From a virus (taxonomy: Duplodnaviria > Caudoviricetes): a stretch of 64,000 nucleotides of DNA. Where the stretch lies: the IMG/VR virus record IMGVR_UViG_2588253764_000003; one strand, written 5' to 3'. The notes beneath the pieces are model-generated. The model was given only the letters and a program-made list of their open reading frames with translations, made no database searches and was not told the origin of the DNA. The first letter of the stretch is position 1. Every line of letters starts with the position of its first letter. This document shows positions 9,333-59,831 of this stretch, piece after piece. A program made the position numbers and the translations under genes.

Positions 9333-9380
9333 GATTGGGTTCCTATGTGCTTAAAGGTTTCTTAGTAGACACCCTAACAG

Positions 9381-9464
9381 GTGCCGGGTGCTAAGAAACA
9401 CGGCACATAGCCCGTCGTTATACCTTTCCCAAAAGGGTATTGTATAGCATAACCACACCCGACA
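9381..9464 (-). ncRNA. C4-like antisense RNA (copy 1) upstream of antirepressor
   Basis: Closing stem; CUAUGUG and UUUCUUAG segments are complementary to sites both upstream (9544-9567) and downstream (9343-9365). Confidence 0.7.
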
Positions 9465-9732
9465 AGGTCATTATATGTGCGTAGCATATAATGAGTCAAA
9501 GCTTTTAATTGGCGGTGAAAAGATTGTTTCGGCAATCTATCCGCTATGTGTTTAAGGTGTTTCTTAGGCACCTGATTCGACAATATGCATAACGTCACTG
9601 CCTTGTCAAGTGATAAAAACTTTTTTCTAAAAATAATACGCTATTGTACAGTGTGTATATGAATACACATTAAATTCGTTATTTTTCAATATATTATGTG
9701 TACAATGTACAGTCATTTTGAAAATTCTGTCG

Positions 9733-23658: not shown

Positions 23659-23659
23659 A

Positions 23660-26768: not shown

Positions 26769-26769
26769 C

Positions 26770-28192: not shown

Positions 28193-28195
28193 GGT

Positions 28196-28663: not shown

Positions 28664-28677
28664 GGTTTATTTCCTTA

Positions 28678-30877: not shown

Positions 30878-30885
30878 GGAGCTTA

Positions 30886-34962: not shown

Positions 34963-35121
34963 AAAAAATAAAAAATACGTATTGACTTTAAAGAAAAGGT
35001 CGTTTATTAAGGTCGGCAAGTGCTGAAAACACTTAACGTTAAGCGGTTAAACCACGTAAGGTTTCTCCCATTTCTTAAAATACTGGCTTTCTTTTATGCT
35101 ATCATTGGCATATAACGATTA

Positions 35122-35204
35122 TGTCGGGTGTAGTCGCACCATACAATACTCTTTATGAGAAAAGTGTGACGACGGACTTAACGCCGTGTTTTCAACGCCC
35201 GGCG
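35122..35204 (+). ncRNA. C4-like antisense RNA (copy 3) upstream of rha
   Basis: CUUAACG and GUUUUCA complementary to CGTTAAG and TGAAAAC at 35024-35043 and 35222-35243; TTGACT -35 at 34982. Confidence 0.7.
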
Positions 35205-35255
35205 CCCTTATAGGGTGTCAATTGAAAACTTCATTACGTTAAGAAAGAATTTCAA

Positions 35256-35771
35256 ATGAACAATTTAGTAACAATCAATAATGGTATTGCTGTCACAACT
35301 TCTTTTAAAATTGCTGAGGGAGTGGGTAATACGCATAAAACAGTTATACAGTTGGTTCGTAAAAATATTAAAGATTTTGAAGAATTTGGAAGGGTCGCAT
35401 TTGAAATGCTACCCTTTAAAACGAAGGGTGGAAAACAAAAAAGAGAAGTTGCTATTCTTAATGAATCGCAAGCAACTTTACTTATGACATATATGCGCAA
35501 TAATGACACGGTGCGTGCATTTAAAAAGGCGCTTGTCAAAGCTTTCTATGAATTAAAAAGCCAATCAACAGCTCGTGATTTATTTTCTACGGAGCATGAT
35601 TTGTTTTCTTATGAAAGTTTAAAGGCTCCTGAGGGAATTGGTAAAGTTTTGGGAATGATTGCAGCGCGTTTATCGTATGTAAATGATTTACAAAAAGAGC
35701 TTGATCATTACAAATTGGTTACAACAGAAGCCAAGCGTGTTTTAACAAACGCTGTTGCAAAAGCAGCATAA
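35256..35771 (+). CDS. rha: Rha family phage regulatory protein
   Basis: TTS..IAEG....HK.V.QL.R....DFEEFG.V.FE...LNE.QATLL.TY.RN...VR.FK..LVKAF. Confidence 0.88.
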   Translation: MNNLVTINNGIAVTTSFKIAEGVGNTHKTVIQLVRKNIKDFEEFGRVAFEMLPFKTKGGKQKREVAILNESQATLLMTYMRNNDTVRAFKKALVKAFYELKSQSTARDLFSTEHDLFSYESLKAPEGIGKVLGMIAARLSYVNDLQKELDHYKLVTTEAKRVLTNAVAKAA

Positions 35772-35851
35772 AAAAACAGCGGCGGTGCGGGGGCGCCTTC
35801 TTTAAACCTCTTATTAAAAATTTATTCAAATGTTAGATTAGGGAGCTACCT

Positions 35852-36511
35852 ATGACCACTAAAAATGTATCCAAAAAATATGAACTCACAGATGAAAGCA
35901 TAAAAGGCAATGATAAAGAACTTAAAAGGACTATAACGCTTTATCGCATACGTGCTTTAAGAGATTTTGCTGATGTCAAGGCTGGGGATCTCGGGGGCTT
36001 TATCGAAAAGGAAAAAAACTTAAGTCATGATGGCAATTGCTGGGTCTATGATGATGCCATGGTCGCTACAGATTCTGTAGTTTCTGACAATGCGCAAGTG
36101 CGCAATAATGCACGTGTTTTCAGAAGTGCAAAAGTATCTGATAATGCTGTTATTCTGGATAATGCATTGGTTTTTCATAATGCTAGGGTTTTTGAAAATG
36201 CAAAAATTTGTGATAACGCCATGGTCAATGGCACTGTTAGTGGCAATGCTGTTGTTTGTAATAATGCAAAGCTCTTTTTTATCGCTTTTGTTTCTGATAA
36301 TGCACAAATTTATGATGATGCTTGTGTGAATGGTGAGGTTTTTGGCAATGCACGTATTTATGGCAATGCAACGGTTTATAGAAAGCCTCGTACTGATGGG
36401 TGGGTTGATCATACATATGTAAACATTTATGGCAATGCCGTTATTAATGGCAATCAAAAAATTTGTGATGATACTGATGGTAGTGAACAAATTTTAGATA
36501 AAACAGCATAA
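35852..36511 (+). CDS. YdcK-like hexapeptide-repeat protein
   Basis: Conserved head plus repeats. Confidence 0.8.
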   Translation: MTTKNVSKKYELTDESIKGNDKELKRTITLYRIRALRDFADVKAGDLGGFIEKEKNLSHDGNCWVYDDAMVATDSVVSDNAQVRNNARVFRSAKVSDNAVILDNALVFHNARVFENAKICDNAMVNGTVSGNAVVCNNAKLFFIAFVSDNAQIYDDACVNGEVFGNARIYGNATVYRKPRTDGWVDHTYVNIYGNAVINGNQKICDDTDGSEQILDKTA

Positions 36512-37525: not shown

Positions 37526-39041
37526 ATTCGATATAATATCAAAAAATACAATGAAGTCAATAGCTTGTTTGTAATTATTTTATATGAATCCACTTAAGAA
37601 TCCATCTTTTTATGCATGATTCATTTGACTATTTTTTATATAAGATTGCCATGTATGAATAGATCATAAAAAGCAAATCATGATGCAAATATTATAACGC
37701 ATATAAACGTTCAAATGAAATGAAAAGCAGTTATCACTCATAACAGTTTATAAATCTTATGATACGTTTTTATCACAGCACAAATCACATTGTTTAAAAT
37801 TTAGTCGTTTAGAATTGTCGATAACACACGTTTAAAGATTATATCTTATTTTAAAGATTGGATTGTTAATCACATAAAAGAGTAAATTAACGTTCGCCAA
37901 AATTGGCGAGCGCAAAATAGAGAGTTGTTATAACAGCATCGTCATAACACCGAACATTTTAAAGATTGCATAATTGCATAAAGGATTTAAAGACACGATT
38001 GATTTTATAACCACGGTATTTTTTTACCGGGGTAGAAATAAAGGTAATGAAAATCACAATGTTATATCTTATGAAATGAAAAGCCTTTTAATGAATATAG
38101 TGCATAGCTAGTTTTGAAGAACGGAACTGTTCGCTTCCATAAAAAAATGGAGGCGCATAATGCCATAGAAGTAGAATACTATATACCTTAGACATGGTAT
38201 AAAAAACGTTTTAAAAGTTATCGTTTTAAAATATGAAACCAAATGAGATCTCCTCAAATTTGAGGGCATCTATTTTAGACAAAGATAAGCAAGTAAAATT
38301 CAAAACCGTTGTAACATCATAAGGCATAGGATTTACTTAATTTTGCTAGCCAAATAGAGCGATTAATTTGCAAAGAAGCTTTGTTTAAAATACGCTTATT
38401 ATGAAAGCCTTTCTAAATGAATGTTTAAACGTTTGAAACTAATGTTTATAATAATTTTTAAAACCTTCCATTTGATAAAAGCGGTTGTTGATTTATTTTA
38501 TGAGAGCTTGTTTTAAAAACCAGCGTTTGCAAATGTAAAAAGAACGTTTTTATAAGACATTCATTTAAGATGCATTTTCTTTTGATTGAATTGATAAAGC
38601 TACCAAACGTTTTAATATGTTTTGATTTTAGAAAATGCGTTATTTGAAATTCACTCAGCTCGATTTTGAGCTTAGTATATTGAAACGTTTTAAAAGAAGC
38701 ATTGTGATCATGGGCTTTGTTTTAAAAGCCCCCCTCACAAAGGAGGGTGTTATGATTGATACGTTTGAGATTAACAAAAAGCGTTTATAGGCTCTCTCAT
38801 TCAAAAGAGTGATTAAAGATCATACGCATCATTTACATTCCTTTTGATAAGTTTTCATATCTTGAATAGAGCGCTTGTAATATAATACGTTTTGTATATA
38901 TGAATTCATTACTCCATTTGGAATGATTCATAAGGGTAGACATTTGAAAGCCGCGTCATATCATTTGGCACGGCTTTCTTTTTGAATTCTCTCTTTTATG
39001 ATGGGTTTATAACCATCAAGAAGGCACCCCCATACCTATTT

Positions 39042-39821
39042 CTATTCTGTTTTATCAATAATCTTAACGACATTATCGCTTTGATAAACCTCACAATTTT
39101 TGGGAACTAACTTTGCTTTGCTTTTTGTATTGATTGTTGCATTGCCATAAGCACGCCCCCAGATCGTTGCACAATGTAAGATTTTTGCATTGCCATAGAC
39201 GGAGCCATAAACCTCACAAGAGCCCCCCACGCGCGCATTGCCATAGACCTTGCCATAAATCTTTGCACGACCATTAATCACAGCATAATTATAAATTTTG
39301 GCATGGCTATAAATGCAAGCAGAGCCACAAACCCTAGCATGACCATAGACGCGGGCATAACTAAAAACCGTAGCATCATAAGAAATATGCGCATGGTCAT
39401 AAATATGAGCATCAGCAAGAACGCGGGCAGCACCACTCACATGAGCATTGCCATAAACATTGCCATACACATGAGCACTCCCATAAACACAAGCCTGATC
39501 ATAAATCTTTGCATATTGAGAGATAAAAGCCTTGCTATAGACCTCGGCATTGCCATAAACTAGACCACAGACTTGCGAATAATGCCGTATTTTTGCATCA
39601 TCATAAACACGGGCATGACCATAGATACAAGCATCATCATAGACCCAGCAGTTACCATCATGGGATAGGTTAACTTCCTTTTCGATAAAACCACCTAAAG
39701 CACCCGCTTTTATATCATCAAAATCTCTTAAAGCCCGAATGCGATAAAGGCTTGTAATATTTCGCGTAAGAGCATGTTTGATTTTTTTGATTTCGCTGGT
39801 TAATTCGTATTTTTTGCACAT
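39042..39821 (-). CDS. YdcK-like hexapeptide-repeat protein (array 1, gene 4)
   Basis: Near-identical to 56769..57548. Confidence 0.85.
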   Translation of the reverse strand: MCKKYELTSEIKKIKHALTRNITSLYRIRALRDFDDIKAGALGGFIEKEVNLSHDGNCWVYDDACIYGHARVYDDAKIRHYSQVCGLVYGNAEVYSKAFISQYAKIYDQACVYGSAHVYGNVYGNAHVSGAARVLADAHIYDHAHISYDATVFSYARVYGHARVCGSACIYSHAKIYNYAVINGRAKIYGKVYGNARVGGSCEVYGSVYGNAKILHCATIWGRAYGNATINTKSKAKLVPKNCEVYQSDNVVKIIDKTE

Positions 39822-39889
39822 AGGAGTACCCTCACAATCTAATGTGATAAACGTTTTCTAAAATTTGAAATGGAAAATTGGATTGGAAA

Positions 39890-39912
39890 GCAGGCGCCCC
39901 CACAACGCCCGC
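39890..39912 (-). repeat. GC hairpin inter-cassette repeat (variant)
   Basis: GCGGGCGTTGTGGGGGCGCCTGC; stem retained. Confidence 0.65.
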
Positions 39913-39926
39913 CGCTGCTTTATTGA

Positions 39927-40505
39927 TTAAACCCAGACAATTTCTAACTCGCCATAAGGAGAGAGACGTTCAGTATAGGTTTTTATTTTAGTAGAGCCGC
40001 CGACATTTTCACGAATAACAGCAATGCCATGGATATGAGCATTTTCATAAATATGCACGTCATTTGCTATACGCGCGTTTTCATAAACCCTAGCATTGTC
40101 ATAAATATAGGCATTATCATAGATAATAGCCTTGCCATACACATGAGCATTGCCATAAACACGGGAATTATCAGAAACAACAGCATTGCCATAAACATGC
40201 GCATTATCATAAATATAGCCAGCAGCGATAGCATTATCATAAACGCGGGCATGACCATAGATATGACCACAAGCGACAGCCTTGCCAAAAACCCTTGCGT
40301 TTTCATAAACGTGACCATTTTTAAACACAAGAGCATCATCATAAACCCAGCAATTGCCATCATGAGAGAGGTTATCTTCCTTTTCGATAAAGCCCCCCAA
40401 GGCACCAGCTTTAACATAAGAAAAGTCTTTTAATGCTTGGATACGATAAAGGGTATGATTACCAAATACACGCGTTTCATTTGTGAGTGCAAACTTTTTT
40501 TGCAT
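39927..40505 (-). CDS. YdcK-like hexapeptide-repeat protein (array 1, gene 3)
   Basis: Near-identical to 57662..58240. Confidence 0.85.
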   Translation of the reverse strand: MQKKFALTNETRVFGNHTLYRIQALKDFSYVKAGALGGFIEKEDNLSHDGNCWVYDDALVFKNGHVYENARVFGKAVACGHIYGHARVYDNAIAAGYIYDNAHVYGNAVVSDNSRVYGNAHVYGKAIIYDNAYIYDNARVYENARIANDVHIYENAHIHGIAVIRENVGGSTKIKTYTERLSPYGELEIVWV

Positions 40506-40557
40506 AACACTATTCCTTTATAAAGAAGATTAAATTTTAAAATGAAATGTTTAAAGA

Positions 40558-40579
40558 GGGGCGCCCCCGCCGCGCCCGC
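40558..40579 (-). repeat. GC hairpin inter-cassette repeat
   Basis: GCGGGCGCGGCGGGGGCGCCCC just after a stop codon. Confidence 0.8.
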
Positions 40580-40586
40580 ACGTTAT

Positions 40587-41360
40587 TTACGCAGCGTCTT
40601 TTCTAGACTGATTATCATCACAAATATCATTCGTAATTTTTTCACGGCTATTAACCACGGCATTACCATAGATTTGTACATCATGATCAATATTGGATTT
40701 ACCATAGACCTTTGCATTTTCATAAATTCTTGCAAAGGACCCCACCCGAGCCGAGCCAGAAACCTTTGCATCATCAAAAATACTTGCAAAACTCTTAATC
40801 CAAGCATTACAAAAGACATGGGCATTGCCATAAATACACGCCCCCCCATAAATGCGTGATTTACCATAAACATGGGAATTCCCATAAACAAAGCCACTCA
40901 CATGAGCATTTTCATATACACGGGCATTATCATAAATATGTGCACTAGGAGAAACATTAGCATTATCACAAACCATGGCATTGCCATAAACTAGACCACA
41001 GATCCTAGCATTGTTACTAATTTTTGCATTGTCATAAATGCTAGCATCATGACCGAATACCCATGCCTTATCACAAACCACAGCATTCCCATAAACTTTA
41101 GCTTCCCTAGCAATAATGGCATCATGATGTATTTTTGCATTTTCAGAAACGACGGCATTGCAAAAAACGGTAGCATTATCGTAAACCCAGCAATTCCCAT
41201 CATGAGAGAGATTGCTTTCATTTTCAATAAAACCACCTAATGCCCCCGCCTTAACATCATCAAAATCTCTTAAAGCACGAATGCGGTGTACAGTAATCCC
41301 TTCAAAAGTATGATTTTCATTAGTCAATTCATATTTTTTAGATACAGTTATAGTGGACAT
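40587..41360 (-). CDS. YdcK-like hexapeptide-repeat protein (array 1, gene 2)
   Basis: Head plus many hexapeptides; ends DAA. Confidence 0.85.
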   Translation of the reverse strand: MSTITVSKKYELTNENHTFEGITVHRIRALRDFDDVKAGALGGFIENESNLSHDGNCWVYDNATVFCNAVVSENAKIHHDAIIAREAKVYGNAVVCDKAWVFGHDASIYDNAKISNNARICGLVYGNAMVCDNANVSPSAHIYDNARVYENAHVSGFVYGNSHVYGKSRIYGGACIYGNAHVFCNAWIKSFASIFDDAKVSGSARVGSFARIYENAKVYGKSNIDHDVQIYGNAVVNSREKITNDICDDNQSRKDAA

Positions 41361-41412
41361 AGGTAACTCCCTAAGTTTATATTTGATAAATTTTAGAATG
41401 AGTTGTTTAAAA

Positions 41413-41436
41413 GGGGCGCCCCCGCCGCGCCCGCGC
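41413..41436 (-). repeat. GC hairpin inter-cassette repeat
   Basis: Same core as 40558-40579. Confidence 0.8.
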
Positions 41437-41441
41437 GTTAT

Positions 41442-42173
41442 TTACGCAGCATCATTTTCATATTCGCTATCATCGTCATAATACCATTCACAATCAGCAT
41501 AATACTCATGACGGTAATAATCATCTTCACTTCCAAATTCTGGATATGCCTCATCCCAAATATGATCATCAGCAGTTAAAGAGGCAGCGCTATGAACATA
41601 AGAATCGCCAGAGATAAGAGCCCCACAAACCACAGCATCATCAAAAACACGCGAGCCATCACAAATATGAGCAGCGCCGCTTATTTTAGCATTGCCCCCG
41701 ACATGAGCATCATCACAAATAACGGCATCATCACAAATATGAGCATGATTAGTGACGCGGGCGTTATCATAAATTTTAGCATTACCTTCAATTACAACGG
41801 CATTGCTAACATGAGCATTGCCATAAAGCTTTGCATTGTCCTTTAATAACATGCCTTCAAAAATAGCATTACCATAAATTCTTGCATTACCACAAACATC
41901 AACAAAAAAGCTTTTTACTTTAGCATTGCCTGAAACCCTTGCATTTTGAAAGACGCGCGCTTTGTCATACACCCAGCAATTGCCTTTGTGAGATAAGTTA
42001 CTTTCGTTTTCAATATACCCCCCAAGATCGCCCGCTTTGACATCACCAAAATCTCTTAAAGCACGTATACGGTATAATATGAGACCAGTCACAAAATCCA
42101 TTTCGCCAGTAAACTCATATTTTTTAGATGTTTTTTTCTTATTAACGGGGGTAATTTTTGATATATTTTTCAT
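41442..42173 (-). CDS. YdcK-like hexapeptide-repeat protein (array 1, gene 1), acidic aromatic tail
   Basis: Head plus repeats; tail EDDYYRHEYYADCEWYYDDDSEYENDAA. Confidence 0.85.
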   Translation of the reverse strand: MKNISKITPVNKKKTSKKYEFTGEMDFVTGLILYRIRALRDFGDVKAGDLGGYIENESNLSHKGNCWVYDKARVFQNARVSGNAKVKSFFVDVCGNARIYGNAIFEGMLLKDNAKLYGNAHVSNAVVIEGNAKIYDNARVTNHAHICDDAVICDDAHVGGNAKISGAAHICDGSRVFDDAVVCGALISGDSYVHSAASLTADDHIWDEAYPEFGSEDDYYRHEYYADCEWYYDDDSEYENDAA

Positions 42174-42223
42174 AATTAAAGCCTTGATGTTAATATTGTT
42201 TTGAAATTGACACCCTATAAGGG

Positions 42224-42306
42224 TGTCGGGCGTTCAAAACACGGCATCAAGTCCGTCGTTACACTTTTCTCATAAAGAGTATTGTATGGTGTAACCACAC
42301 CCGACA
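42224..42306 (-). ncRNA. C4-like antisense RNA (copy 4), leader of array 1
   Basis: CUUGAUG and GUUUUGA complementary to CATCAAG and TCAAAAC at 42386-42406 and 42183-42205. Confidence 0.7.
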
Positions 42307-42944
42307 TAATCGTTATATGCTAATGTTAGCATAAAAGAAAGCCAGTATTTTAAGAAATGGGAAAGGTTGTTTCGTAACCTACCCGCTTGATGTTTAAGTG
42401 TTTTGATCACTTGATTATTTATATAACAAAATACGTATTTATTGTCAAATAATATTCTATCTTTTTTGATATTTTTTTGTATTTTTTTAGATACGTTGTG
42501 TATTGATAATATCTTATGCTTCTGAATTGCTTCTTTTATATTTATGTGCTTTTAAAGCTATATTATGGGCTTTCTGAAATGATTGAGTTATGTTTTGAAT
42601 CTATACATTTATAATATTTAGAAACGCTCTTATAATGCGTATTTTTATCTTTATAACCTATCAATTTTTTCACTAAATGAATTTTAATTTTTTTGTGAAT
42701 TTCTTTTATAACGCATTTGCAACTTAACAGCTTTTTATAGGGACCGTCTTTATAATCAATGATTTCATTTGCATTATGATTGTAAAACCTTCTTTATAAC
42801 TGTTATCTGTTTTATAGCCATCGCATCATTTTTCATTTTCATAAGAGAAACAATAAATAGGATAATTGCGATTTATAGACTGTTATGAAAATATCTAAAG
42901 AGAGATTGATAATTATAGAGATTAGAAAAATCCCTTTTAATAGG

Positions 42945-43787: not shown

Positions 43788-46700
43788 TTATTCAGTTTCT
43801 CTTAATACCAAATTTGGTAAGTTTTTTACGATTTTCATTGTTTCTAAACTTACGGTAATAACCTTTTGAAATAACTCTAGAGGGTAGGCAGGGTTGCCAA
43901 CGGTTTCAACAGCATAGCGATTGGCATCATTAACAATACCACTCTTTTTATCAGTCTTTACACATTGACGTCCCATAACCCATTCAAGAGCGGGTTTACC
44001 ATTGACGATATACTTATAAGCTTCAAGAGGGATATCTGTTATTGTGATATTGCTATTATAAATAACAGTGGTTTTATCTTTCTCTTTACCTGCTTTTGCG
44101 AATTTCATTTCAGTTACATAATAGAATTTTTCGGGATTAGAGATCTCTGTTTGTTTTGGATTGCCCTTTTTAAAGGTCACTGGATAAGGCTCTACATCTT
44201 CATAATTCACGTGCAGATGACCCAATTTACGCCCTGCTGTTACAAATTTCCAAAAATCATCAGCATTCTTTACACAAGGGATACGAGGTAATTCTTTAGA
44301 GAGGTTATCAGCATAACGAGAGCGATAATCTTTTGAATGAAGTAAACCGTAAACATAATAGAATAGATCATCTTTAGTGATAGTCTCATTAGGATAAGCG
44401 GCTTTAAAATGTGCTAATCCTTCATCAGTAATGGCATCACGCTTCTGTAAACCAGCTGTTGTGTTTGCTTCTGTAAATAAATGGGATTGGTTTTCACTTT
44501 TACTTTTTGAAACCGAAGTGTCTTCGTAAATATAACGTGGAAAACATTGACCACTCTCTATTGTAGTAAGATTAGGTATACTTTTAGCCATCAAAACAGA
44601 AAAACCACTTCTTGCGCCTATACCTGTAACTTGTATTACCTTATTTTCGACTACTTGCCCCATCGGAAATATACGCGGCATTTGGTAAGTTCTTTCATTA
44701 AAAATACGATTGTAATAGAGCCATTGCTTTGTAAAGGGACGATAAAGACTTTGAACTGAACAATTACTTTCAAATTCGGAAACTTTTCCTCTTACAAACT
44801 CTTCTTTTAGACTACTACTCCAACTGATTTTTTTAGCATCAACGTTAACAAAATTGTCTACAGCATTTTTACGTATCCTGCTATCAACATGCCCATAAGC
44901 ATTATTAAAACGTTCTACTTCACTATTATAGAAAGCAATCGTATTAGTCATATTTTTTGCTAAAACTTTACGGCTTGAATTGTACGCCCAAGCATCACGA
45001 TTGGTTGAAACTCCAAGAGAAAAATTTTCAAAAAGTTTTTTACCATGACCTTTTTTAACACCTAGAGCTAAGAACGCTTTGAAATTTTCATCACGTTGAT
45101 GAATCCAATCACCATGTTCATCCGGCGTAATTGTTTGCCATTTTTGTTTACGCGTAATGCCATCAATACTACCAAAGAACTTGATTATCTTAAGTTTTTT
45201 TGTAGTAGAAAGATTATCTCCAATGTCATGATAGTAAATTTTACAATCTCCAGAAACACTAGGATTTTTGATAAATAGTGTCACAGCAATACCGGTCATA
45301 CTTCCATTGCAAAAAATATTTTCTCCTTCTTGAGCAGTTCCATTGCTTAACATATTTTTACGTATATCCCCTCGTAAATTAAGCACATAAATACTTGTAA
45401 ATTCTTTGGCTAAAGATTTTCGTAAGCCAGCCATTGTCGACTTTTCTATATAACCAGAGCCAGAAACAAAGCCGATTACCCCAGCATTCTCAATACGGTC
45501 GCTTGCCCAGCGTATAGCACGAATATAACTGTCATATAACTTTTGCGTACTAGTTGCTCTAGATTGAGCGGCGTAAGTTTCACCGATACGTTTATTTAAT
45601 ATGGGATAGGGAGTATTCTTTGCATTATCATTTTCATTTTTTTGTCCTACGGAATAAGGGGGGTTACCAAAGATAACTTTAATATTTAGATTTTTCTGAA
45701 GTTCCAAATATTCACTGTTTTCTTTAAACAATTCCTGTAGCAGATTTTTCTCTTCAAGCATCCGAAATGTATCAGTCAAACCAATATGCTTGAAAGGGAT
45801 ATACTCACCTTTCATAAGACTATGATAAGTCGATTCAATGTTAATGGCTGCTATGTAATAGGCAAGCAAAACAATCTCATTGGCATGGATATCATGACGG
45901 AACTTATATTCCATATCCTCTGGTTTGATAAGATCTGATTGTAATAGCCTTGTGATAAAGGTTCCTGTACCTGTAAAAGGGTCAAGAATAGAGACACCCC
46001 GTGAACCAAGGCTTTTTCCAAATTCATTCCGCAATACATCATCAACAGAATGAATGATAAAATCAACAACCTTAACGGGCGTATAAACAATTCCAAGCTT
46101 ATCCGTGGTTTTTTTAAATGCCTTGGCAAAAAAGCTTTCATAAAGTTTGATAATAAGATTCTGTTTTGCATGAGTTTCCGTAATGCCTGCTGTACAGAAC
46201 GTGACACTTTTGTAAAATTTATCAAGATCTTTCGTTTTCTCTTCGATATTGGTTTTATCCAGTTCCGTTAAGATCTTATCCATAGCTTGCGAAATGGCAT
46301 TGTTCTGTACAAATTCATTACCGTCAAATAAAGCTTCAAACACGGGACGCGTGACAAGATGTTGGGCTAACATCTCAATCGCTTCCTCTTTTTTGATTTC
46401 ACTGTTGACGTTGTTCTTTAATTCCTTATGAAAGGCATCAAAAGCATGAAAGGCTTCACTCTTTTCATCGGAAATCATATCTTTAAGATGATTGATATGG
46501 TTTTGAGCAATCTCAGCAACATTGTTCGCCCATATGCCCCAATAATCCGTGATTTTAAAACTATCCAGAAAAATGGCTTTGACAAAATCAAAAAATTCAG
46601 AACGGCGGAATAAGTCTCCTTGTCCTCCAGATACCGGTTGAGATTTTCTTTCTGCTGTTCCAATGGTATGCCCAGAACTTTCTGTTTTTGATGGTATCGA

Positions 46701-48746
46701 GATCTCATCAACCGTTGTGGTAAGCTCTTTTAATTCATTGGCACGCTTAATTTCTATAATCTCAATCGTATGGCTGCTATCTTGTCCTAAAGACATTTGA
46801 TTAATCGTCCGTGCAAGTCTCTCATCATGAGAATGTAAAGCATCCAAAACTTGCCAAACAACACGGTATCTCTTATTGTTTTTTAAAGCCTTTTTGGCTT
46901 CTAAGTGTGAAGGAATGATAATAGGTAAAATGATATAGCCCGTTTTCTTATTTGGAGCACGACGCATCACACGCCCCACCGCCTGTATCACATCCACTTG
47001 GCTATTGCGCGGGTGTAAAAACATGATGGCATCAAGAGCAGGGACATCAATCCCTTCAGACAGACACCGAACATTGCTTAAAATCCGACAAACGTTTTGA
47101 CCCGTATCTTCTTTAAGCCAATCCAATTCCTCATTGCGTTTTTTGACGCTTTGCGTTCCGTCGATATGTCTTACTTCACAGTTCAAAAAAGGAACGGTTT
47201 GAAGGAAATCATCAATATGAGATTTGATAATTTTATTGAAGAGCTTTGTAATATATTGAGAGGTGTTGATATCTTTGCAAAAAGCTAAAGCACATTGCAT
47301 GGGCTCTGTATCATCATCATCGATAGCTGCTTGCTTATCTATTTTAGTCAGTGCTCTATAACAGCCAATAATTTTTGCCGCATCATCTAAATCAATTTCA
47401 CGGTTTTCATTGGCAATAATCTCCTGTATGGCTGGTGTGATATAGGTTTCATTAATACCCAAGACCACAATCTTGTAAGGAGTTAAAAGTTCATTATCGA
47501 CAGCTTCCGCGAAGGTATAATGATGGAGTTGTTTTCCAAAAAGCGTTTCGTCATCCATAGATGCGAGAACGGCATTAATCTCATCAGCGCGCCTTTTGGC
47601 AGTGTCACTAAAGATACGAGGCGTTGCTGTCATATACAAACGTTTCTTGCCTCGAATAATGCTGTTATCGTGAACCTTGATAAATTCGGATTCATTGTCT
47701 TCATTTCCCAATGAAGCCCCAGTGGTTCTATGCGCTTCATCGCAAATGATCAGATCAAATTCGGGTAAACCATGATCCTTTTGCGCATCCGAAATCACTT
47801 GGATAGAATGGTAAGTTGAAAAGACCACGGTCATTGCATCGGCTAGGTTTTCGCAAGCTTCTTTGGCAAGGGCTTGTGCATCTGTGGTAGCAGGGAGAAC
47901 AAGATCTGATGTTTCCATGCCAACGATATCCTCTTGGTTTTTACGACGCTTGCCTACTTTCGTATCCGAACACACCGCAAAGGAACGCAACGAGATTTGT
48001 GCATCGGCTGTCCATTCACGGATTGTTTGCGAGACTAAAGCCAGAGAAGGAACCAAAAACAAAACACGCTTGCCTTTCCCAGCAAGGGTTTCTGCTATCT
48101 TCAAACTGGTGAAAGTCTTCCCCGTACCACATGCCATGATCAGCTTGCCACGGTCTGCTTCTTTTAAACCTTCACAGACTTTCTTGATGGCTTCTTCTTG
48201 ATGGGGACGAGGCTTTTTTGTTGATTTCAGAACCACTTCTTTTTTTGTTGCAAATATTTGCCAATCTATCCGACTGTTTTCCATATGACGAAGGTCAATG
48301 CGATAAATGGGTATCGCTTGTCCTTTAATCATGGCATTCACATTGTCACTTAATTCCACTTCCGTGCTGTCAACGAGAAGACGATATTTAAAGATGTCTT
48401 TTCCAGATGCCGCGATAAAGCTATCAATATCCTTTTTACTGATCTGATGATCTGCTTGATAAAACTTACATTGAATAGCGACATAGCCCTCTTGATGACG
48501 AAGCTTGGCAACCAGATCAATGCCGATATCATTTTTATTCCAATCTTCACGTTCTTTCGCCCATTCATAATAGCTCTCAACTTTTTCATATCGCCCATAA
48601 TGGAGAGGGTCATGCATAAGATATTTTGTCACAAAATCTTCAAACACTTTCCCCCGTAGAGCATTTGATGTTGCCTGTTCACGATAGGATTGTAAAAGGG
48701 AGCGTAAAGTGACGTGTTCATGATCAGAGTTAACATATTGCAGCAT
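43788..48746 (-). CDS. Type ISP restriction-modification enzyme (Mrr-like nuclease + SF2 helicase + N6A methylase + TRD)
   Basis: GIDLVA..AIQCKFY, MACGTGKT, ICDEAH, MTATP, QAVGRVMR, LDPFTGTG, GNPPY; LlaGI/LlaBIII architecture. Confidence 0.92.
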   Translation of the reverse strand: MLQYVNSDHEHVTLRSLLQSYREQATSNALRGKVFEDFVTKYLMHDPLHYGRYEKVESYYEWAKEREDWNKNDIGIDLVAKLRHQEGYVAIQCKFYQADHQISKKDIDSFIAASGKDIFKYRLLVDSTEVELSDNVNAMIKGQAIPIYRIDLRHMENSRIDWQIFATKKEVVLKSTKKPRPHQEEAIKKVCEGLKEADRGKLIMACGTGKTFTSLKIAETLAGKGKRVLFLVPSLALVSQTIREWTADAQISLRSFAVCSDTKVGKRRKNQEDIVGMETSDLVLPATTDAQALAKEACENLADAMTVVFSTYHSIQVISDAQKDHGLPEFDLIICDEAHRTTGASLGNEDNESEFIKVHDNSIIRGKKRLYMTATPRIFSDTAKRRADEINAVLASMDDETLFGKQLHHYTFAEAVDNELLTPYKIVVLGINETYITPAIQEIIANENREIDLDDAAKIIGCYRALTKIDKQAAIDDDDTEPMQCALAFCKDINTSQYITKLFNKIIKSHIDDFLQTVPFLNCEVRHIDGTQSVKKRNEELDWLKEDTGQNVCRILSNVRCLSEGIDVPALDAIMFLHPRNSQVDVIQAVGRVMRRAPNKKTGYIILPIIIPSHLEAKKALKNNKRYRVVWQVLDALHSHDERLARTINQMSLGQDSSHTIEIIEIKRANELKELTTTVDEISIPSKTESSGHTIGTAERKSQPVSGGQGDLFRRSEFFDFVKAIFLDSFKITDYWGIWANNVAEIAQNHINHLKDMISDEKSEAFHAFDAFHKELKNNVNSEIKKEEAIEMLAQHLVTRPVFEALFDGNEFVQNNAISQAMDKILTELDKTNIEEKTKDLDKFYKSVTFCTAGITETHAKQNLIIKLYESFFAKAFKKTTDKLGIVYTPVKVVDFIIHSVDDVLRNEFGKSLGSRGVSILDPFTGTGTFITRLLQSDLIKPEDMEYKFRHDIHANEIVLLAYYIAAINIESTYHSLMKGEYIPFKHIGLTDTFRMLEEKNLLQELFKENSEYLELQKNLNIKVIFGNPPYSVGQKNENDNAKNTPYPILNKRIGETYAAQSRATSTQKLYDSYIRAIRWASDRIENAGVIGFVSGSGYIEKSTMAGLRKSLAKEFTSIYVLNLRGDIRKNMLSNGTAQEGENIFCNGSMTGIAVTLFIKNPSVSGDCKIYYHDIGDNLSTTKKLKIIKFFGSIDGITRKQKWQTITPDEHGDWIHQRDENFKAFLALGVKKGHGKKLFENFSLGVSTNRDAWAYNSSRKVLAKNMTNTIAFYNSEVERFNNAYGHVDSRIRKNAVDNFVNVDAKKISWSSSLKEEFVRGKVSEFESNCSVQSLYRPFTKQWLYYNRIFNERTYQMPRIFPMGQVVENKVIQVTGIGARSGFSVLMAKSIPNLTTIESGQCFPRYIYEDTSVSKSKSENQSHLFTEANTTAGLQKRDAITDEGLAHFKAAYPNETITKDDLFYYVYGLLHSKDYRSRYADNLSKELPRIPCVKNADDFWKFVTAGRKLGHLHVNYEDVEPYPVTFKKGNPKQTEISNPEKFYYVTEMKFAKAGKEKDKTTVIYNSNITITDIPLEAYKYIVNGKPALEWVMGRQCVKTDKKSGIVNDANRYAVETVGNPAYPLELFQKVITVSLETMKIVKNLPNLVLRETE

Positions 48747-56768: not shown

Positions 56769-57548
56769 TTATTCTGTTTTATCAATAATCTTAACGACAT
56801 TATCGCTTTGATAAACCTCACAATTTTTGGGAACTAACTTTGCTTTGCTTTTTGTATTGATTGTTGCATTGCCATAAGCACGCCCCCAGATCGTTGCACA
56901 ATGTAAGATTTTTGCATTGCCATAGACAGAGCCATAAACCTCACAAGAGCCCCCCACGCGCGCATTGCCATAGACCTTGCCATAAATCTTTGCACGACCA
57001 TTAATCACAGCATAATTATAAATTTTCGCATGGCTATAAATACAAGCAGAGCCACAAACCCTAGCATGACCATAGACGCGTGCATAACTAAAAACCGTAG
57101 CATCATAAGAAACATGGGCATGGTCATAAATATGAGCATCAGCAAGAACGCGGGCAGCACCACTCACATGAGCATTGCCATAAACATTGCCATACACATG
57201 AGCACTCCCATAAACACAAGCCTGATCATAAATCTTTGCATATTGAGAGATAAAAGCCTTGCTATAGACCTCAGCATTGCCATAGACGAGACCACAGACT
57301 TGAGAATAATGCCGTATTTTTGCATCATCATAAACACGGGCATGACCATAGACACAAGCCTCATCATAGACCCAGCAATTGCCATCATGGGATAGGTTGA
57401 CTTCCTTTTCGATAAAACCGCCTAAAGCACCCGCTTTTATATCATCAAAATCTCTTAAAGCCCGAATGCGATAAAGGCTTGTGATATTTCGCGTAAGAGC
57501 ATGTTTGATTTTTTTGATTTCACTGGTTAATTCGTATTTTTTGCACAT
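56769..57548 (-). CDS. YdcK-like hexapeptide-repeat protein (array 2, gene 4)
   Basis: Near-identical to 39042..39821. Confidence 0.85.
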   Translation of the reverse strand: MCKKYELTSEIKKIKHALTRNITSLYRIRALRDFDDIKAGALGGFIEKEVNLSHDGNCWVYDEACVYGHARVYDDAKIRHYSQVCGLVYGNAEVYSKAFISQYAKIYDQACVYGSAHVYGNVYGNAHVSGAARVLADAHIYDHAHVSYDATVFSYARVYGHARVCGSACIYSHAKIYNYAVINGRAKIYGKVYGNARVGGSCEVYGSVYGNAKILHCATIWGRAYGNATINTKSKAKLVPKNCEVYQSDNVVKIIDKTE

Positions 57549-57616
57549 AGGAGTACCCTCACAATCTAATGTGATAAACAGTTGATAAAATTTGAAATGG
57601 AAAATTTATTTTGAAA

Positions 57617-57639
57617 GCAGGCGCCCCCGCCGCGCCCGC
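57617..57639 (-). repeat. GC hairpin inter-cassette repeat
   Basis: GCGGGCGCGGCGGGGGCGCCTGC. Confidence 0.75.
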
Positions 57640-57661
57640 ATTTTATTTACGTTACATTAGG

Positions 57662-58240
57662 TTAGACCCATACAATTTCTAACTCACCATAAGGAGAGAG
57701 ACGTTCAGTATAGGTTTTTATTTTAGTAGAGCCGCCGACATTTTCACGAATAACAGCAATGCCATGGATATGAGCATTTTCATAAATATGCACGTCATTT
57801 GCTATACGAGCGTTTTCATAAACCCTAGCATTGTCATAAACATAAGCATTATCATAAATAATAGCCTTGCCATAGACATGAGCATTGCCATAGACACGGG
57901 AATTATCAGAAACAACGGCATTGCCATAAACATGCGCATTATCATAAATATAGCCAGCAGCGATAGCATTCTCATAAACGCAGGCATGACCATAGATATG
58001 ACCACAAGCGACAGCCTTGCCAAAAACCCTTGCGTTTTCATAAACGTGACCATTTTTAAACACAAGAGCATCATCATAGACCCAGCAATTGCCATCATGA
58101 GAGAGGTTATCTTCCTTTTCGATAAAGCCCCCCAAGGCACCAGCTTTAACATCAGCAAAGTCTTTTAATGCTTGGATACGATAAAGGGTATGATTACCAA
58201 ATACACGCGTTTCATTTGTGAGTGCAAACTTTTTTTGCAT
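57662..58240 (-). CDS. YdcK-like hexapeptide-repeat protein (array 2, gene 3)
   Basis: Near-identical to 39927..40505. Confidence 0.85.
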   Translation of the reverse strand: MQKKFALTNETRVFGNHTLYRIQALKDFADVKAGALGGFIEKEDNLSHDGNCWVYDDALVFKNGHVYENARVFGKAVACGHIYGHACVYENAIAAGYIYDNAHVYGNAVVSDNSRVYGNAHVYGKAIIYDNAYVYDNARVYENARIANDVHIYENAHIHGIAVIRENVGGSTKIKTYTERLSPYGELEIVWV

Positions 58241-58292
58241 GGCACAATTCCTTTATAAAGAAGATTAAATTTTAGAATGAGATTTTTAAAGA

Positions 58293-58316
58293 GGGGCGCC
58301 CCCGCCGCGCCCGCGC
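58293..58316 (-). repeat. GC hairpin inter-cassette repeat
   Basis: Same core as array 1 repeats. Confidence 0.8.
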
Positions 58317-58322
58317 CATTAT

Positions 58323-58985
58323 TTACGCAGCGTTATTTTCAATAATCTTTACAACGTTATTGCCTTCATAAACCTCACAATTTATGGGAACCGAACATAA
58401 ACCGCTATGTCTTTTTATCCTTGCATTGCCATAAACATTACCTCTAATCACGATATAACTAGAGATTTTTGCATTGCCATAAACAGAGCCATAAACATCA
58501 GTATGACAGCCCACGCTAGCATTCCCATAAACCTTGCCATAAATTTTTGCAGCGCCACTGATAACAGCATGATCATAAACCACAGCATTCCTATGAATAC
58601 GAGCGCTTCCTGATAATTTTGCATTGCCATAAACCCGCGCCTGATGATAAACCCAAGCATTATAAGAAAGATGCGCATTGTCATAAACATGAGCATTTGC
58701 ATAAACGCGGGCGTGATCACAGACATGAGCATTGCCATAAACAAAGCCCATTATAATAGCGTTATTAAAAACCTTGGCATTTTCATAAATATGGGCAGGA
58801 TTTAAAACAAGAGCATCATTATAGACCCAGCAGTTGCCATCATGAGAGAGATTGTTTTCACTTTCAATAAAGCCACCCAATTGACCAGCTTTAACATCAT
58901 CAAAATCTCTTAAAGCACGAATGCGATAAAGAGTTTGATTATTAAATACACGTGTCTCATTTGTGAGTGCAAACTTCTTTTGCAT
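58323..58985 (-). CDS. YdcK-like hexapeptide-repeat protein (array 2, gene 2)
   Basis: N-terminus like gene 3, C-terminus like gene 4; ends NAA. Confidence 0.85.
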   Translation of the reverse strand: MQKKFALTNETRVFNNQTLYRIRALRDFDDVKAGQLGGFIESENNLSHDGNCWVYNDALVLNPAHIYENAKVFNNAIIMGFVYGNAHVCDHARVYANAHVYDNAHLSYNAWVYHQARVYGNAKLSGSARIHRNAVVYDHAVISGAAKIYGKVYGNASVGCHTDVYGSVYGNAKISSYIVIRGNVYGNARIKRHSGLCSVPINCEVYEGNNVVKIIENNAA

Positions 58986-59036
58986 AACACTATTCCTTTA
59001 TAAGAAGATTAAATTTTAAATGAAATGTTTTAAAGA

Positions 59037-59060
59037 GGGGCGCCCCCGCCGCGCCCGCGC
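59037..59060 (-). repeat. GC hairpin inter-cassette repeat
   Basis: Same core. Confidence 0.8.
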
Positions 59061-59065
59061 ATTAT

Positions 59066-59701
59066 TTACGCAGCGTCTTTTATAGACTGGTCATTATAGA
59101 CAATTTCTTTACTACAGACTTCAATATTATTGCGAACCCAAGTGTCACCTTTGATAACCGCATTGCGAAAAATCTTTACATTTGGAAAAATACAAGCATA
59201 TCCGGAAATTTTCGCATTATCATAAATTTTTGTATCATTAAAAACACAAGCGTAATAATGAACATGAGCATTACCAAAAATATGAGCATCCGGATAAATA
59301 CGTGCAAAGCCATACACATGAGCATTGCCATAAATATGGCCAGCCACAACCGCCTTGCCATAAACCCTTGCATTTTCATAAATACAAGCAATATTGTTCA
59401 CATGGGCATAACCACTTACAACGGCATTATCGTAAACCCTTGCATTGCTATAAACCTTAGCTTTACCGCCAACCCAACAATTGCCATCATGGGATAAATT
59501 ACTTTCACCTTGTATAAACCCGCCTAACTCACCTTTTTTGACGTCTCCAAAATCTCTTAAAGCTCTAATTCTATGAAGTGTTTTAAAGCCAACCTCTATT
59601 GTTTCACCTGTAAATTCGTATTTTTTTGCAGGCTCTTGTTGATTAACAGGCGCGGTTGCATTTGAAGATATAATGGGGGAGTTTTTTGATATATTTGTCA
59701 T
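59066..59701 (-). CDS. YdcK-like hexapeptide-repeat protein (array 2, gene 1)
   Basis: Head plus repeats; ends DAA. Confidence 0.85.
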   Translation of the reverse strand: MTNISKNSPIISSNATAPVNQQEPAKKYEFTGETIEVGFKTLHRIRALRDFGDVKKGELGGFIQGESNLSHDGNCWVGGKAKVYSNARVYDNAVVSGYAHVNNIACIYENARVYGKAVVAGHIYGNAHVYGFARIYPDAHIFGNAHVHYYACVFNDTKIYDNAKISGYACIFPNVKIFRNAVIKGDTWVRNNIEVCSKEIVYNDQSIKDAA

Positions 59702-59749
59702 ATTTAAATCCTACATGATTTAGTGTTTTCAATTGACAGCCTATAAAGG

Positions 59750-59831
59750 CGCCGGGCGTTGAAAACACGGCATGTAGTCCGTTGTTATGCCTTCCTCATA
59801 AGAGTATTGTATAGCATAACCACACCCGACA
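59750..59831 (-). ncRNA. C4-like antisense RNA (copy 5), leader of array 2
   Basis: CUACAUG and GUUUUCA complementary to CATGTAG and TGAAAAC at 59910-59929 and 59711-59732. Confidence 0.7.

What the first reader, a model, noticed from the sequence alone, without database searches (positions are those of the whole stretch)
39042..42410. C4-controlled cassette array of hexapeptide-repeat genes with polarised variability
Seen: both islands have a leader plus 4 tandem YdcK-like genes. The two leader-distal genes are near-identical between islands (259 and 192 aa), whereas the two leader-proximal genes differ (243/257 vs 211/220 aa). The array 1 leader closely resembles the prophage B c4-rha-YdcK leader at 35020-35250, but with rha gone. 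Inference: the island captured a phage C4 operon and expanded it into a diversifying repertoire of beta-solenoid proteins. It may be expressed on escape from C4 repression and act against or with helper phages, which carry their own homologues. The polarity recalls integron or CRISPR arrays, but rests on only two arrays.
Basis: partly seen in the sequence, partly recalled or inferred. Interest (0 to 1): 0.8.

Follow-up and report, generated by a model that had tools for sequence, protein, structure and literature searches.

The report
RNA-locked phage solenoid gene arrays
Bartonella genomic islands carry short tandem sets of phage-type beta-solenoid genes, each apparently kept shut by its own small antisense RNA of the phage P1 kind; the RNA lock is well supported by sequence, but what the proteins do is still unknown.

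Summary
Array 1 (42173-39042, minus strand) and array 2 (59701-56769) each have four YdcK-like genes behind a C4-like RNA. The distal genes are 97% and 99% identical between arrays and the proximal genes 47-50%.

The RNA scores just below Rfam's cut-off for sRNA-Xcc1 (RF02221). It shows the full phage P1 layout: a1/b1 sites, RNA, then a2/b2 sites over the first gene's ribosome-binding site. In 58 Bartonella copies there are 23 different 7-nt loops. The exact complement lies downstream in 55 of 58 and upstream in 56 of 58, against 1 and 21 of 1218 mismatched controls.

The 127-kb record has five such arrays, and 78 Bartonella loci gave 49.

Polarity is a real tendency: last genes are a median 66% identical, first genes 49%. 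It fits unequal homologous recombination at repeated junction units, not integron- or CRISPR-like insertion.

The arrays sit beside a Type ISP restriction gene in 32 of 35 cases. The proteins occupy the antirepressor slot and their function is untested.

Verdict: a new variant of a known regulatory kind. First-stage readers noted look-alike arrays in another genome.

The parts
42420..42448 (-). Distal promoter-like site of array 1 (TTGACA-17-TATATA) with the palindrome AATACGTATT (42430-42439) in its spacer; candidate repressor-controlled promoter.
   Evidence: 54 of 57 leaders have such a site; 51 of 57 have ATACGTAT; exact 10-mer found only in three leaders of the window; 0.14 expected.
42386..42406 (-). 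Upstream a1 (42406-42398) and b1 (42392-42386) sites, complementary to the a' and b' segments of the RNA.
42317..42345 (-). Proximal promoter-like site (CTGGCT-17-TAGCAT) just 5' of the RNA. It overlaps the conserved palindrome ATGCTnnnnTTAGCAT.
   Evidence: (42 of 57 leaders).
42217..42305 (-). C4-like antisense RNA of array 1 (b' loop CTTGATG at 42251-42245; a' GTGTTTTGAA at 42242-42233).
   Evidence: RF02221, 50.9 bits, E 6.4e-7; 22 consensus pairs, 6 with compensatory changes.
42182..42205 (-). Target sites a2 (42205-42197) and b2 (42189-42183). b2 overlaps the Shine-Dalgarno AAGG (42185-42182) of the first gene.
41442..42173 (-). Array 1 gene 1, class 'alpha' (243 aa, pI 5.0, acidic Tyr-rich tail).
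40587..41360 (-). Array 1 gene 2, class 'beta' (257 aa).
39927..40505 (-). Array 1 gene 3, class 'gamma' (192 aa), constant in all five arrays of the record (97-100%).
39042..39821 (-). Array 1 gene 4, class 'delta' (259 aa), the usual terminal gene.
41361..41441 (-). Junction unit alpha-beta: GC-only hairpin 41432-41414 followed by CTTTTAAA, then a gene-specific RBS half. Equivalent units lie at 40506-40586 (hairpin 40577-40559) and 39822-39926 (hairpin 39910-39892).
38947..38977 (-). Terminator-like hairpin closing array 1 (an identical copy closes array 2 at 56673-56703).
56769..59971 (-). Array 2 with its leader: distal promoter-like site 59971-59943, b1 59916-59910, proximal promoter-like site 59872-59844, C4-like RNA 59830-59743 (b' CTACATG 59777-59771), a2 59732-59723, b2 59717-59711; genes epsilon 59066-59701, zeta 58323-58985, gamma 57662-58240, delta 56769-57548.
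34974..36511 (+). Prophage counterpart: the same leader design (C4-like RNA 35123-35211, b1 35037-35043, b2 35237-35243), then rha 35256-35771 and a YdcK-like gene 35852-36511.
8619..9609 (-). Canonical-type copy: leader and C4-like RNA (9463-9375; b' CTATGTG; b2 9349-9343) in front of an AntA/KilAC antirepressor gene (9332-8619).
43788..48746 (-). Type ISP restriction-modification gene (1652 aa), co-directional and 1.5 kb upstream of array 1. Its paralogue lies upstream of array 2 (61343 to beyond 64000).

Best explanation
Each array is the payload of a phage P1 immI-type operon. A roughly 89-nt C4-like RNA lies in the leader and could be cut from the operon's own transcript. Its hairpin-2 loop (b') and the single-stranded stretch after it (a') are complementary to b2 and a2. 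b2 covers the Shine-Dalgarno sequence of the first gene, so pairing there would block translation of gene 1 and, by polarity, silence the genes behind it. A second, upstream copy of the targets (a1/b1) is present only in transcripts from a distal consensus promoter that carries a palindromic candidate operator. I infer that transcripts from this promoter titrate the RNA and open the lock when an unknown repressor is lost. Where P1 has icd-ant, these islands have 2-5 tandem paralogues of phage YdcK-like proteins: a conserved head of about 60 aa, a hexapeptide beta-solenoid of variable length, and a variable tail. The arrays differ because repeated junction units, and 5' coding ends that are about 70-83% identical at DNA level, allow unequal homologous crossover. 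Any recombinant keeps a leader plus a 'first-type' gene at one end and gamma-delta at the other, which produces the leader-biased variability. Shown here: the anatomy, the covariation, the conservation, the junction hybrids and purifying selection. Inferred: processing of the RNA, translational block and polarity, the decoy role of a1/b1, and the role of the operator. Least certain: what the proteins do. My best guess, at about 0.3, is that they are early phage-conflict proteins used in the antirepressor slot when a resident prophage or the island is derepressed.
For: Cognate loop/target matches: six specificities among the seven copies of the record. In 58 copies with full flanks from 78 Bartonella loci plus the record there are 23 distinct loops; the exact complement is found downstream in 55 of 58, upstream in 56 of 58, and both in 54 of 58. 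Non-cognate controls gave 1 of 1218 downstream and 21 of 1218 upstream. RNA fold: 22 consensus pairs, 6 with compensatory changes, in 53 sequences. RF02221 hits have E 6e-7 to 2e-5 in the window, and one copy of the record exceeds the cut-off at 53.9 bits. b2 is followed by G in 46 of 55 copies, giving an AGG Shine-Dalgarno. Two promoter-like sites are conserved, in 54 of 57 and 42 of 57 leaders. The same RNA precedes an AntA/KilAC gene and rha. Prophage YdcK pairs follow KilAC/AntA genes directly. The architecture is general: 49 arrays, 36 of them complete. Recombination: the array-5 alpha-gamma junction is a hybrid of the array-4 alpha-beta junction (5' half) and beta-gamma junction (3' half). 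The island 1/2 divergent block is bounded by the junction hairpin and by codon 10 of gene 1. Zeta has a gamma-like head (70%) and a delta-like body and tail (59%). The same loops occur with different first genes. The genes are under constraint: dN/dS is 0.16-0.22 for heads and 0.34-0.38 for solenoids.
Against: There is no direct evidence that the RNA is made or that the genes are repressed; RNA-library contigs were uninformative. All four window copies score below Rfam's cut-off, and the C4 model proper (RF01695) gave no hit. a2 pairing is short: a match with at most 1 mismatch in 10 nt was found downstream in only 16 of 56 copies, against 47 of 56 for a1. Polarity is moderate: the last gene is more alike than the first in 253 of 351 pairs and less alike in 98; 16 pairs share a first gene (>=85%) but differ in the last (<70%), against 27 the other way. 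Those pairs are not independent, and the loci were found with gamma as bait. Co-resident loops are no more different than loops from different genomes (2 of 56 against 75 of 1597 identical pairs), so selection for orthogonality is not shown. Nothing ties the proteins to a function: no PADLOC hit, PHROGs of unknown function, no significant fold match, and no antirepressor domain.
Confidence: 0.7

Rival explanations
1. A dedicated, polar acquisition system (integron- or CRISPR-like): new cassettes are inserted site-specifically next to the leader and older ones are pushed distally.
For: One promoter-bearing leader serves promoter-less genes separated by a repeated hairpin unit. Beta is first in 6 arrays and second behind alpha or eta in others. 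L025 reads like epsilon-gamma placed in front of beta-gamma'-delta'. The first slot is more diverse: 7 clusters with an effective number of about 4, against about 2 for the last slot.
Against: The nearest integrase (52062-53261) is 10 kb away. It has a P4-type arm-binding domain, and the only NCBIfam model listed for it was a generic integrase domain. The junction repeat is a 19-nt GC hairpin, not an attC-like imperfect palindrome. Alpha and epsilon occur almost only in the first slot, so cassettes do not migrate down arrays. Junctions are hybrids of neighbouring junctions, as unequal crossover predicts.
Confidence: 0.07
2. The solenoid proteins work with the neighbouring Type ISP restriction enzyme, for example as modulators, decoys or anti-restriction factors that protect the island or its helper. 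The RNA lock would time this.
For: A Type ISP gene lies upstream and co-directional in 32 of 35 arrays that have at least 2.5 kb of upstream sequence. In a Streptococcus phage the homologues sit among DNA methyltransferase genes.
Against: All these arrays belong to one island family, so the linkage may be shared descent. Prophage copies (35852-36511; L060, L076) lack the enzyme. The proteins are not uniformly acidic (pI 5.0-9.0), which argues against general DNA mimicry. A 1.5-kb spacer and a separate promoter divide the two units.
Confidence: 0.12
3. The arrays are decaying remnants of prophage immunity regions that are copied passively with the island and no longer function.
For: There are multiple copies in a prophage-rich region. 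One delta gene is broken in array 4 (192 + 62 aa). C4 copies without targets or genes exist in L006 and L022.
Against: ORFs are intact in 4 of the 5 arrays here and in 49 arrays across 78 loci, with dN/dS 0.16-0.38. Three RNA-related sites co-vary perfectly, which needs ongoing selection.
Confidence: 0.06
4. The small RNA is mainly a trans-acting regulator of host genes, as proposed for sRNA-Xcc1 in Xanthomonas and Xylella, and its position before the arrays is incidental.
For: The best Rfam match is RF02221. Passages of PMC12189769 describe sRNA-Xcc1 homologues as candidate trans regulators.
Against: Each copy's variable loop matches a site 55-60 nt downstream on its own transcript at the ribosome-binding site, plus an upstream twin. 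That is exactly the cis design of P1 immI.
Confidence: 0.05

Closest known systems
Phage P1/P7 immI operon (c4 antisense RNA - icd - ant; Citron & Schuster 1990, seen only as cited in passages of PMC8201110 and PMC2864571; details of a1/b1, a2/b2, RNase P processing and Rho polarity are recalled, not read)
   Same: The RNA lies in the leader of the operon it would control. Two RNA segments are complementary to paired sites downstream (over the first gene's ribosome-binding site) and upstream. Two promoter-like sites are present. Specificity is set by a few loop bases, which gives heteroimmune variants. An antirepressor-type payload is present in the copy at 9463-8619.
   Different: The payload is 2-5 YdcK-like solenoid genes in place of icd-ant. 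The Rfam C4 model itself does not hit. The arrays sit on an integrative island beside a restriction gene. At least 25 loop specificities occur in one genus (23 parsed plus 2 read by eye), against the two classical ones.
sRNA-Xcc1 family (Rfam RF02221) and the c4-a1b1 motif (Weinberg et al. 2010, PMC2864571, table row seen)
   Same: Best covariance-model match over the full length (model positions 1-87). Found on mobile elements and sometimes in several copies (Xylella island, PMC12189769, passages).
   Different: Window copies score 45.5-50.9 bits against a cut-off of 53. In the passages read, the family is treated as a trans-acting, virulence-linked sRNA; here the cis targets are explicit. 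c4-a1b1 was listed for gamma-proteobacteria and phages, not for Bartonella.
YdcK family (E. coli/Salmonella YdcK, PDB 2f9c/2pig; Pfam PF18836; phage families PHROG 5070 and 7964)
   Same: A conserved head followed by a hexapeptide solenoid. phmmer E 4.5e-18 to 2f9c. Pfam repeat above cut-off. PHROG E down to 1e-81.
   Different: Far below the NCBIfam equivalog cut-off (94-107 bits against 350). Shorter (192-259 aa, against 334 aa for the solved YdcK chain). Arranged in tandem arrays under an RNA lock. The function of the whole family is untested.
Integron cassette arrays
   Same: One leader promoter serves promoter-less genes separated by a repeated structured unit, with more variety at the leader end.
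   Different: No IntI, attI or attC. Gene classes are position-specific. All genes are paralogues of one family. Turnover fits homologous recombination.

Membership tests
P1-type C4 antisense RNA / immI module | Small RNA with a closing stem and two hairpins that matches a curated C4-type covariance model | tested here: inconclusive
   RF02221 gave 45.5-50.9 bits in the window (cut-off 53), E 6e-7 to 2e-5, and 53.9 bits for one copy elsewhere in the record. RF01695 gave no hit. No match reached a gathering score. The fold is supported by 6 of 22 pairs with compensatory changes.
P1-type C4 antisense RNA / immI module | RNA loop complementary to a target over the ribosome-binding site of the first downstream gene (b2, with a2) | tested here: met
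   b2 exact in 55 of 58 copies against 1 of 1218 non-cognate controls. It is followed by G in 46 of 55 copies. a2 is weaker, at 16 of 56 with at most 1 mismatch in 10 nt.
P1-type C4 antisense RNA / immI module | Second copy of the target sites upstream of the RNA (a1/b1) | tested here: met
   b1 exact in 56 of 58 copies (controls 21 of 1218); a1 in 47 of 56.
P1-type C4 antisense RNA / immI module | Payload icd-ant (antirepressor) | tested here: not met
   The arrays carry only PF18836 proteins. An AntA/KilAC payload occurs only in the copy at 9463-8619, and rha in the copy at 35123.
P1-type C4 antisense RNA / immI module | Processing of the RNA from the operon transcript, and repression by translational block with polarity | not testable with these tools
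   Only assembled contigs of RNA libraries were available.
YdcK family | PF18836 repeats above Pfam's cut-off, and sequence similarity to solved YdcK including the head | tested here: met
   (32.1-66 bits against 30). (2f9c, E 4.5e-18, query 25-183 aligned to chain 26-195).
YdcK family | NCBIfam NF040481 equivalog score (orthologue of enterobacterial YdcK) | tested here: not met
   94.1-106.9 bits against a cut-off of 350: YdcK-like, not YdcK.
YdcK family | Beta-solenoid fold | tested here: inconclusive
   The AlphaFold2 model of delta has pLDDT 76.8, with strands every 6 residues over about residues 70-230. Foldseek placed 2f9c at rank 2, but with E 0.2.
Integron | Integron integrase next to the array | tested here: not met
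   The only nearby integrase is 10 kb away. It has Arm-DNA-bind_3 + Phage_integrase domains, and NCBIfam listed only a generic integrase domain model.
Integron | attC recombination sites bounding each cassette | tested here: not met
   The junctions are about 84-nt units with a 6-bp GC stem and a 7-nt loop. This was judged by eye against the recalled attC design; no attC model was run.
Bactofilin | PF04519 above cut-off | tested here: not met
   7 of the 8 array proteins score below 27.9 bits or show no hit; beta scores 30.3.
Known anti-phage defence systems (PADLOC) | Match of the solenoid proteins to any defence model | tested here: not met
   0 families for 7 of 7 YdcK-like proteins. The neighbouring 1652-aa protein matches Type IIG/ISP models.

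The most novel reading that the evidence does not exclude
The islands are helper-sensing satellites. Loss of a resident prophage's repressor would fire the distal promoter. Its a1/b1 decoys would then open an island-specific RNA lock and release a combinatorial set of beta-solenoid proteins that act on prophages or the Bartonella gene transfer agent, for example as a new class of antirepressor or assembly-interference protein. The 25 or more mutually orthogonal RNA locks would then form a genus-wide heteroimmunity network that lets several islands and prophages coexist in one cell.
Probability: 0.15. Interest if true: 0.8.

Novelty: new variant of a known kind. Interest (0 to 1): 0.55.

Why it matters
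It extends the classical P1 antisense-RNA immunity circuit in three ways: to an alphaproteobacterial pathogen genus, to a different payload, and to a non-phage island. It also offers a natural panel of about 25 co-varying RNA lock and target pairs, which is a ready-made test bed for orthogonal riboregulation.

It gives the large, uncharacterised phage YdcK-like family its first regulatory context, the antirepressor slot of an immunity operon. That says when to look for its function: on derepression of prophages.

It explains a repeat family that fragments Bartonella assemblies; many of the 78 loci are short contigs that end in the arrays.

Tried and rejected
- **Rfam at gathering threshold:** no match in the window; the RNA was found only in E-value mode.
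- **tRNA scan:** none.
- **DNA-mimic or anti-restriction idea for all paralogues:** rejected, because pI ranges from 5.0 to 9.0.
- **Fold search of the delta model against PDB and viral models:** no match at E <= 0.001.
- **PADLOC:** no hit for the solenoid proteins.
- **ESM Atlas:** only unnamed or YdcK-repeat clusters.
- **Longer relatives (10 of the 120 listed were scanned):** fusions to DUF7666, DUF6674, DUF3849, DUF3310, DUF6926, HTH, dynamin-like GTPase and nucleotidyltransferase domains. No consistent functional hint.
- **Consensus promoter/terminator scan:** no enrichment over shuffles, and it missed the TATATA -10 site because of its own rule.
- **RNA-library runs:** contigs 90-99% alike cover parts of delta, beta and alpha, and one covers 42206-42364 in one run. 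Contigs cannot show transcription, strand or ends, and the runs may contain DNA. Not used as evidence.
- **Orthogonality test:** co-resident loops are identical in 2 of 56 pairs, against 75 of 1597 between genomes. No signal either way.
- **Operator search:** the exact palindrome occurs only in three leaders. The neighbouring 139-aa ORF has no DNA-binding family hit, so no repressor is identified.
- **Literature:** 'YdcK'+'solenoid' gave 1 irrelevant paper; 'Bartonella'+'C4 antisense' gave 0; 'Bartonella'+'hexapeptide'+'prophage' gave 3 irrelevant; 'YdcK' alone gave 13 with no functional study in the listing; passages of the B. grahamii genome paper (PMC2697382) do not mention these arrays.
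- **My array-calling rule:** it missed three arrays whose first ORF call ran over the leader (L043, L055, L068). They are left out of the slot counts.

Full report
**What is there.** The window is the first 64 kb of a 127,254-bp record classed as a provirus. Its closest relatives are Bartonella genomes: B. tribocorum L103 is 97% identical for the 192-aa protein, and all 78 fetched loci are Bartonella. On the minus strand, four ORFs of 243, 257, 192 and 259 aa run from 42173 to 39042. A second set of 211, 220, 192 and 259 aa runs from 59701 to 56769. All eight pass Pfam's YdcK beta-solenoid repeat model. The 259-aa protein aligns to solved YdcK (2f9c) with E 4.5e-18, including the N-terminal head. 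They fall far below NCBIfam's YdcK equivalog cut-off (94-107 bits against 350), so they are YdcK-like paralogues of the phage kind (PHROG 5070/7964, function unknown). An AlphaFold2 model of the 259-aa protein (pLDDT 76.8) shows strands every six residues. Fold searches gave nothing significant.

**The observation.** Between the two arrays the distal genes are 97% and 99% identical, while the proximal genes are 47% and 50% identical, no closer than any two paralogues. At DNA level the two islands align from 37542-46415 to 55233-64000. Identity is 92% up to the stop codon of gene 2 and 88% from codon 10 of gene 1 onwards, so exactly two ORFs are replaced between conserved flanks. The array-1 leader is 86.6% identical to the leader of a prophage rha plus YdcK-like operon at 35017-35223.

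**The RNA.** No Rfam family reaches its gathering score, and the C4 model itself does not hit. The related sRNA-Xcc1 model (RF02221) matches over its full length at 42217-42305, 59743-59830, 35123-35211 and 9375-9463, with 45.5-50.9 bits against a cut-off of 53. The record has seven copies, one of them above the cut-off. The decisive evidence is covariation. The 7-nt loop of hairpin 2 differs between copies: CTTGATG, CTACATG, CTAACTG, CTTACTG (twice), CTTAACG and CTATGTG. In every copy its exact complement lies both about 95 nt upstream of the RNA and over the Shine-Dalgarno sequence of the first gene. I extended this to 78 Bartonella loci. Of 61 profile hits, 59 were parsed and 58 had full flanks, with 23 distinct loops. 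The downstream complement is present in 55 of 58, the upstream one in 56 of 58, and both in 54 of 58. Non-cognate loops matched in 1 and 21 of 1218 tests. The misses are truncated remnants or copies offset by one base. A second segment (a', GTGTTTT[C/G]AA) matches an upstream site in 47 of 56 copies and, more weakly, a downstream site in 16 of 56, allowing 1 mismatch in 10 nt. The consensus fold has 22 pairs, 6 of them with compensatory changes. This a1/b1 - RNA - a2/b2 layout is the one I recall for P1/P7 immI. I could read only passages citing Citron & Schuster 1990 (PMC8201110) and the table row listing 'c4 antisense RNA' and 'c4-a1b1' (PMC2864571). The primary papers were not held.

**Promoters.** Two promoter-like sites are conserved. 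The first, TTGACA-17-TATATA, lies upstream of a1/b1 in 54 of 57 leaders and has an ATACGTAT palindrome in or beside it in 51 of 57. The second, CTGACT-17-TAGCAT, lies just before the RNA in 42 of 57. The 10-nt palindrome occurs in the window only in the three leaders of the rha operon and the two arrays, against 0.14 expected by chance. I infer that the proximal promoter keeps the lock supplied. I also infer that the distal, probably repressor-controlled promoter makes transcripts whose a1/b1 sites compete for the RNA and open the lock. None of this has been tested.

**Payload context.** The same RNA precedes an AntA/KilAC antirepressor gene (8619-9332) and rha. In the window's prophages, pairs of YdcK-like genes follow KilAC or AntA/KilAC genes and precede ERF or RecT plus YqaJ recombination genes. 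Homologues occur in 83 phage records, in early regions. In Liberibacter phages they lie next to a Bro-N antirepressor, and in a Mannheimia phage they follow recombinase and exonuclease genes. So the arrays occupy the antirepressor slot of an immunity operon. The function itself is unknown: no defence-system match, no informative fusion, and pI 5.0-9.0, which argues against general DNA mimicry. The heads are the most constrained part (dN/dS 0.16-0.22, against 0.34-0.38 for the solenoids; no pair above 1).

**More arrays, and the polarity claim.** The record has five arrays:
- alpha-beta-gamma-delta (array 1);
- epsilon-zeta-gamma-delta (array 2);
- epsilon-gamma-delta (77732-75534);
- alpha-beta-gamma-delta with delta broken (112025-115085);
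- alpha-gamma-delta (121736-119524).

Gamma and delta are constant, and the variation is proximal. Across the genus I called 49 arrays, 36 of them complete. Clustered at 70% identity, the first slot holds 7 clusters (20, 11, 6, 4, 4, 3, 1), the middle slots 9, and the last slot 6 (25, 4, 4, 1, 1, 1). By my arithmetic the effective numbers are about 4.0, 2.6 and 2.0. Among 27 complete arrays of three or more genes, median identity is 49% first-to-first, 54% penultimate and 66% last-to-last. The last gene is more alike than the first in 253 of 351 pairs and less alike in 98. So polarity is a tendency. Three caveats apply: the pairs are not independent, the loci were baited with gamma, and only the best 80 of 181 matches were kept.

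**Mechanism of turnover.** Every junction is a unit of about 84 nt: stop codon, the GC-only hairpin GGGCGC-GGCGGGG-GCGCCC, CTCTTTAAA, then an RBS half specific to the next gene. The alpha-gamma junction of array 5 combines the 5' half of array 4's alpha-beta junction with the 3' half of its beta-gamma junction, which is the signature of an unequal crossover that removed beta. Zeta has a gamma-like head (70%) and a delta-like body and tail (59%, aligned to delta 141-256). Identical loops occur with different first genes. Unequal homologous exchange always keeps a leader with a first-type gene at one end and gamma-delta at the other. That explains both the position-specific gene classes and the leader-biased variety without a dedicated recombinase. 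The nearest integrase is 10 kb away and is not of the integron type.

**Island context.** A Type ISP restriction-modification gene lies upstream in 32 of 35 arrays that have at least 2.5 kb of upstream sequence. Two of the other three are prophage-type leaders, and one shows none of the tested genes (counted). Because all these arrays belong to one island family, the linkage may be shared descent.

**Novelty.** The circuit is known, and so is the protein family as an uncharacterised phage family. Their combination is not in the papers I could search: the tandem arrays, the island setting, and the breadth of RNA specificities (23 parsed plus 2 read by eye). First-stage readers of this scan noted look-alike arrays elsewhere in this genome and in another genome, and a follow-up filed a long YdcK-type protein as a catalogued unknown. 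I rate it a new variant of a known kind.

Noticed in passing
43788-48746 and 61343-64000: Paralogous Type ISP restriction-modification genes (about 80% DNA identity) lie upstream of both arrays. The same linkage holds in 32 of 35 Bartonella arrays with enough upstream sequence.
   Followed up: partly
42306-43787: The AT-rich, ORF-poor spacer between the restriction gene and the leader holds a duplicated unit of about 310 nt (43009-43095 / 43319-43414) and short iteron-like repeats (TGTCAGTT, three copies; GTTTTGA[C/G]GGGGTTT, several copies). It may be a replication origin or a regulatory region.
   Followed up: no
39822-39926, 40506-40586, 41361-41441 and the array-2 equivalents: The GC-only hairpin after each stop codon is followed by CTCTTTAAA, which resembles (from recall) the boxA antitermination element. 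If real, it would bear on polarity within the operon.
   Followed up: partly
30843-31775: One YdcK-like paralogue is fused to a dATP/dGTP diphosphohydrolase N-terminal-type domain (PF18909, E 2.9e-34).
   Followed up: partly
C-termini of the genes at 41442-42173, 40587-41360, 59066-59701 and 58323-58985: The first- and second-slot proteins end in ...DAA or ...NAA, while gamma and delta do not. The Ala-Ala end recalls protease recognition tags (recalled, untested).
   Followed up: no
21382-24283 (+) and 26145-29424 (-): Two mirror-image prophage modules: KilAC or AntA/KilAC, then two YdcK-like genes, then ERF or RecT, then YqaJ exonuclease, flanking an integrase gene at 24759-25802.
   Followed up: partly
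G000:C1:114306-115085: The delta gene of the fourth array is split into 192-aa and 62-aa ORFs, the only broken gene among the five arrays.
   Followed up: no
L006:8587-8678 (-) and L022:3054-3145: C4-like RNA copies whose downstream targets and genes are missing: remnants of leaders.
   Followed up: no
49278-49679: A 133-aa ORF matches only the last 48 positions of DUF3987 (E 2e-4). I recall DUF3987 as part of primase-like proteins of integrative elements. It may be a decayed replication gene of the island.
   Followed up: no
37293-37574: A 93-aa SSB fragment at the island's edge is 81% identical in DNA to the start of the full ssb gene at 12508-12969.
   Followed up: partly
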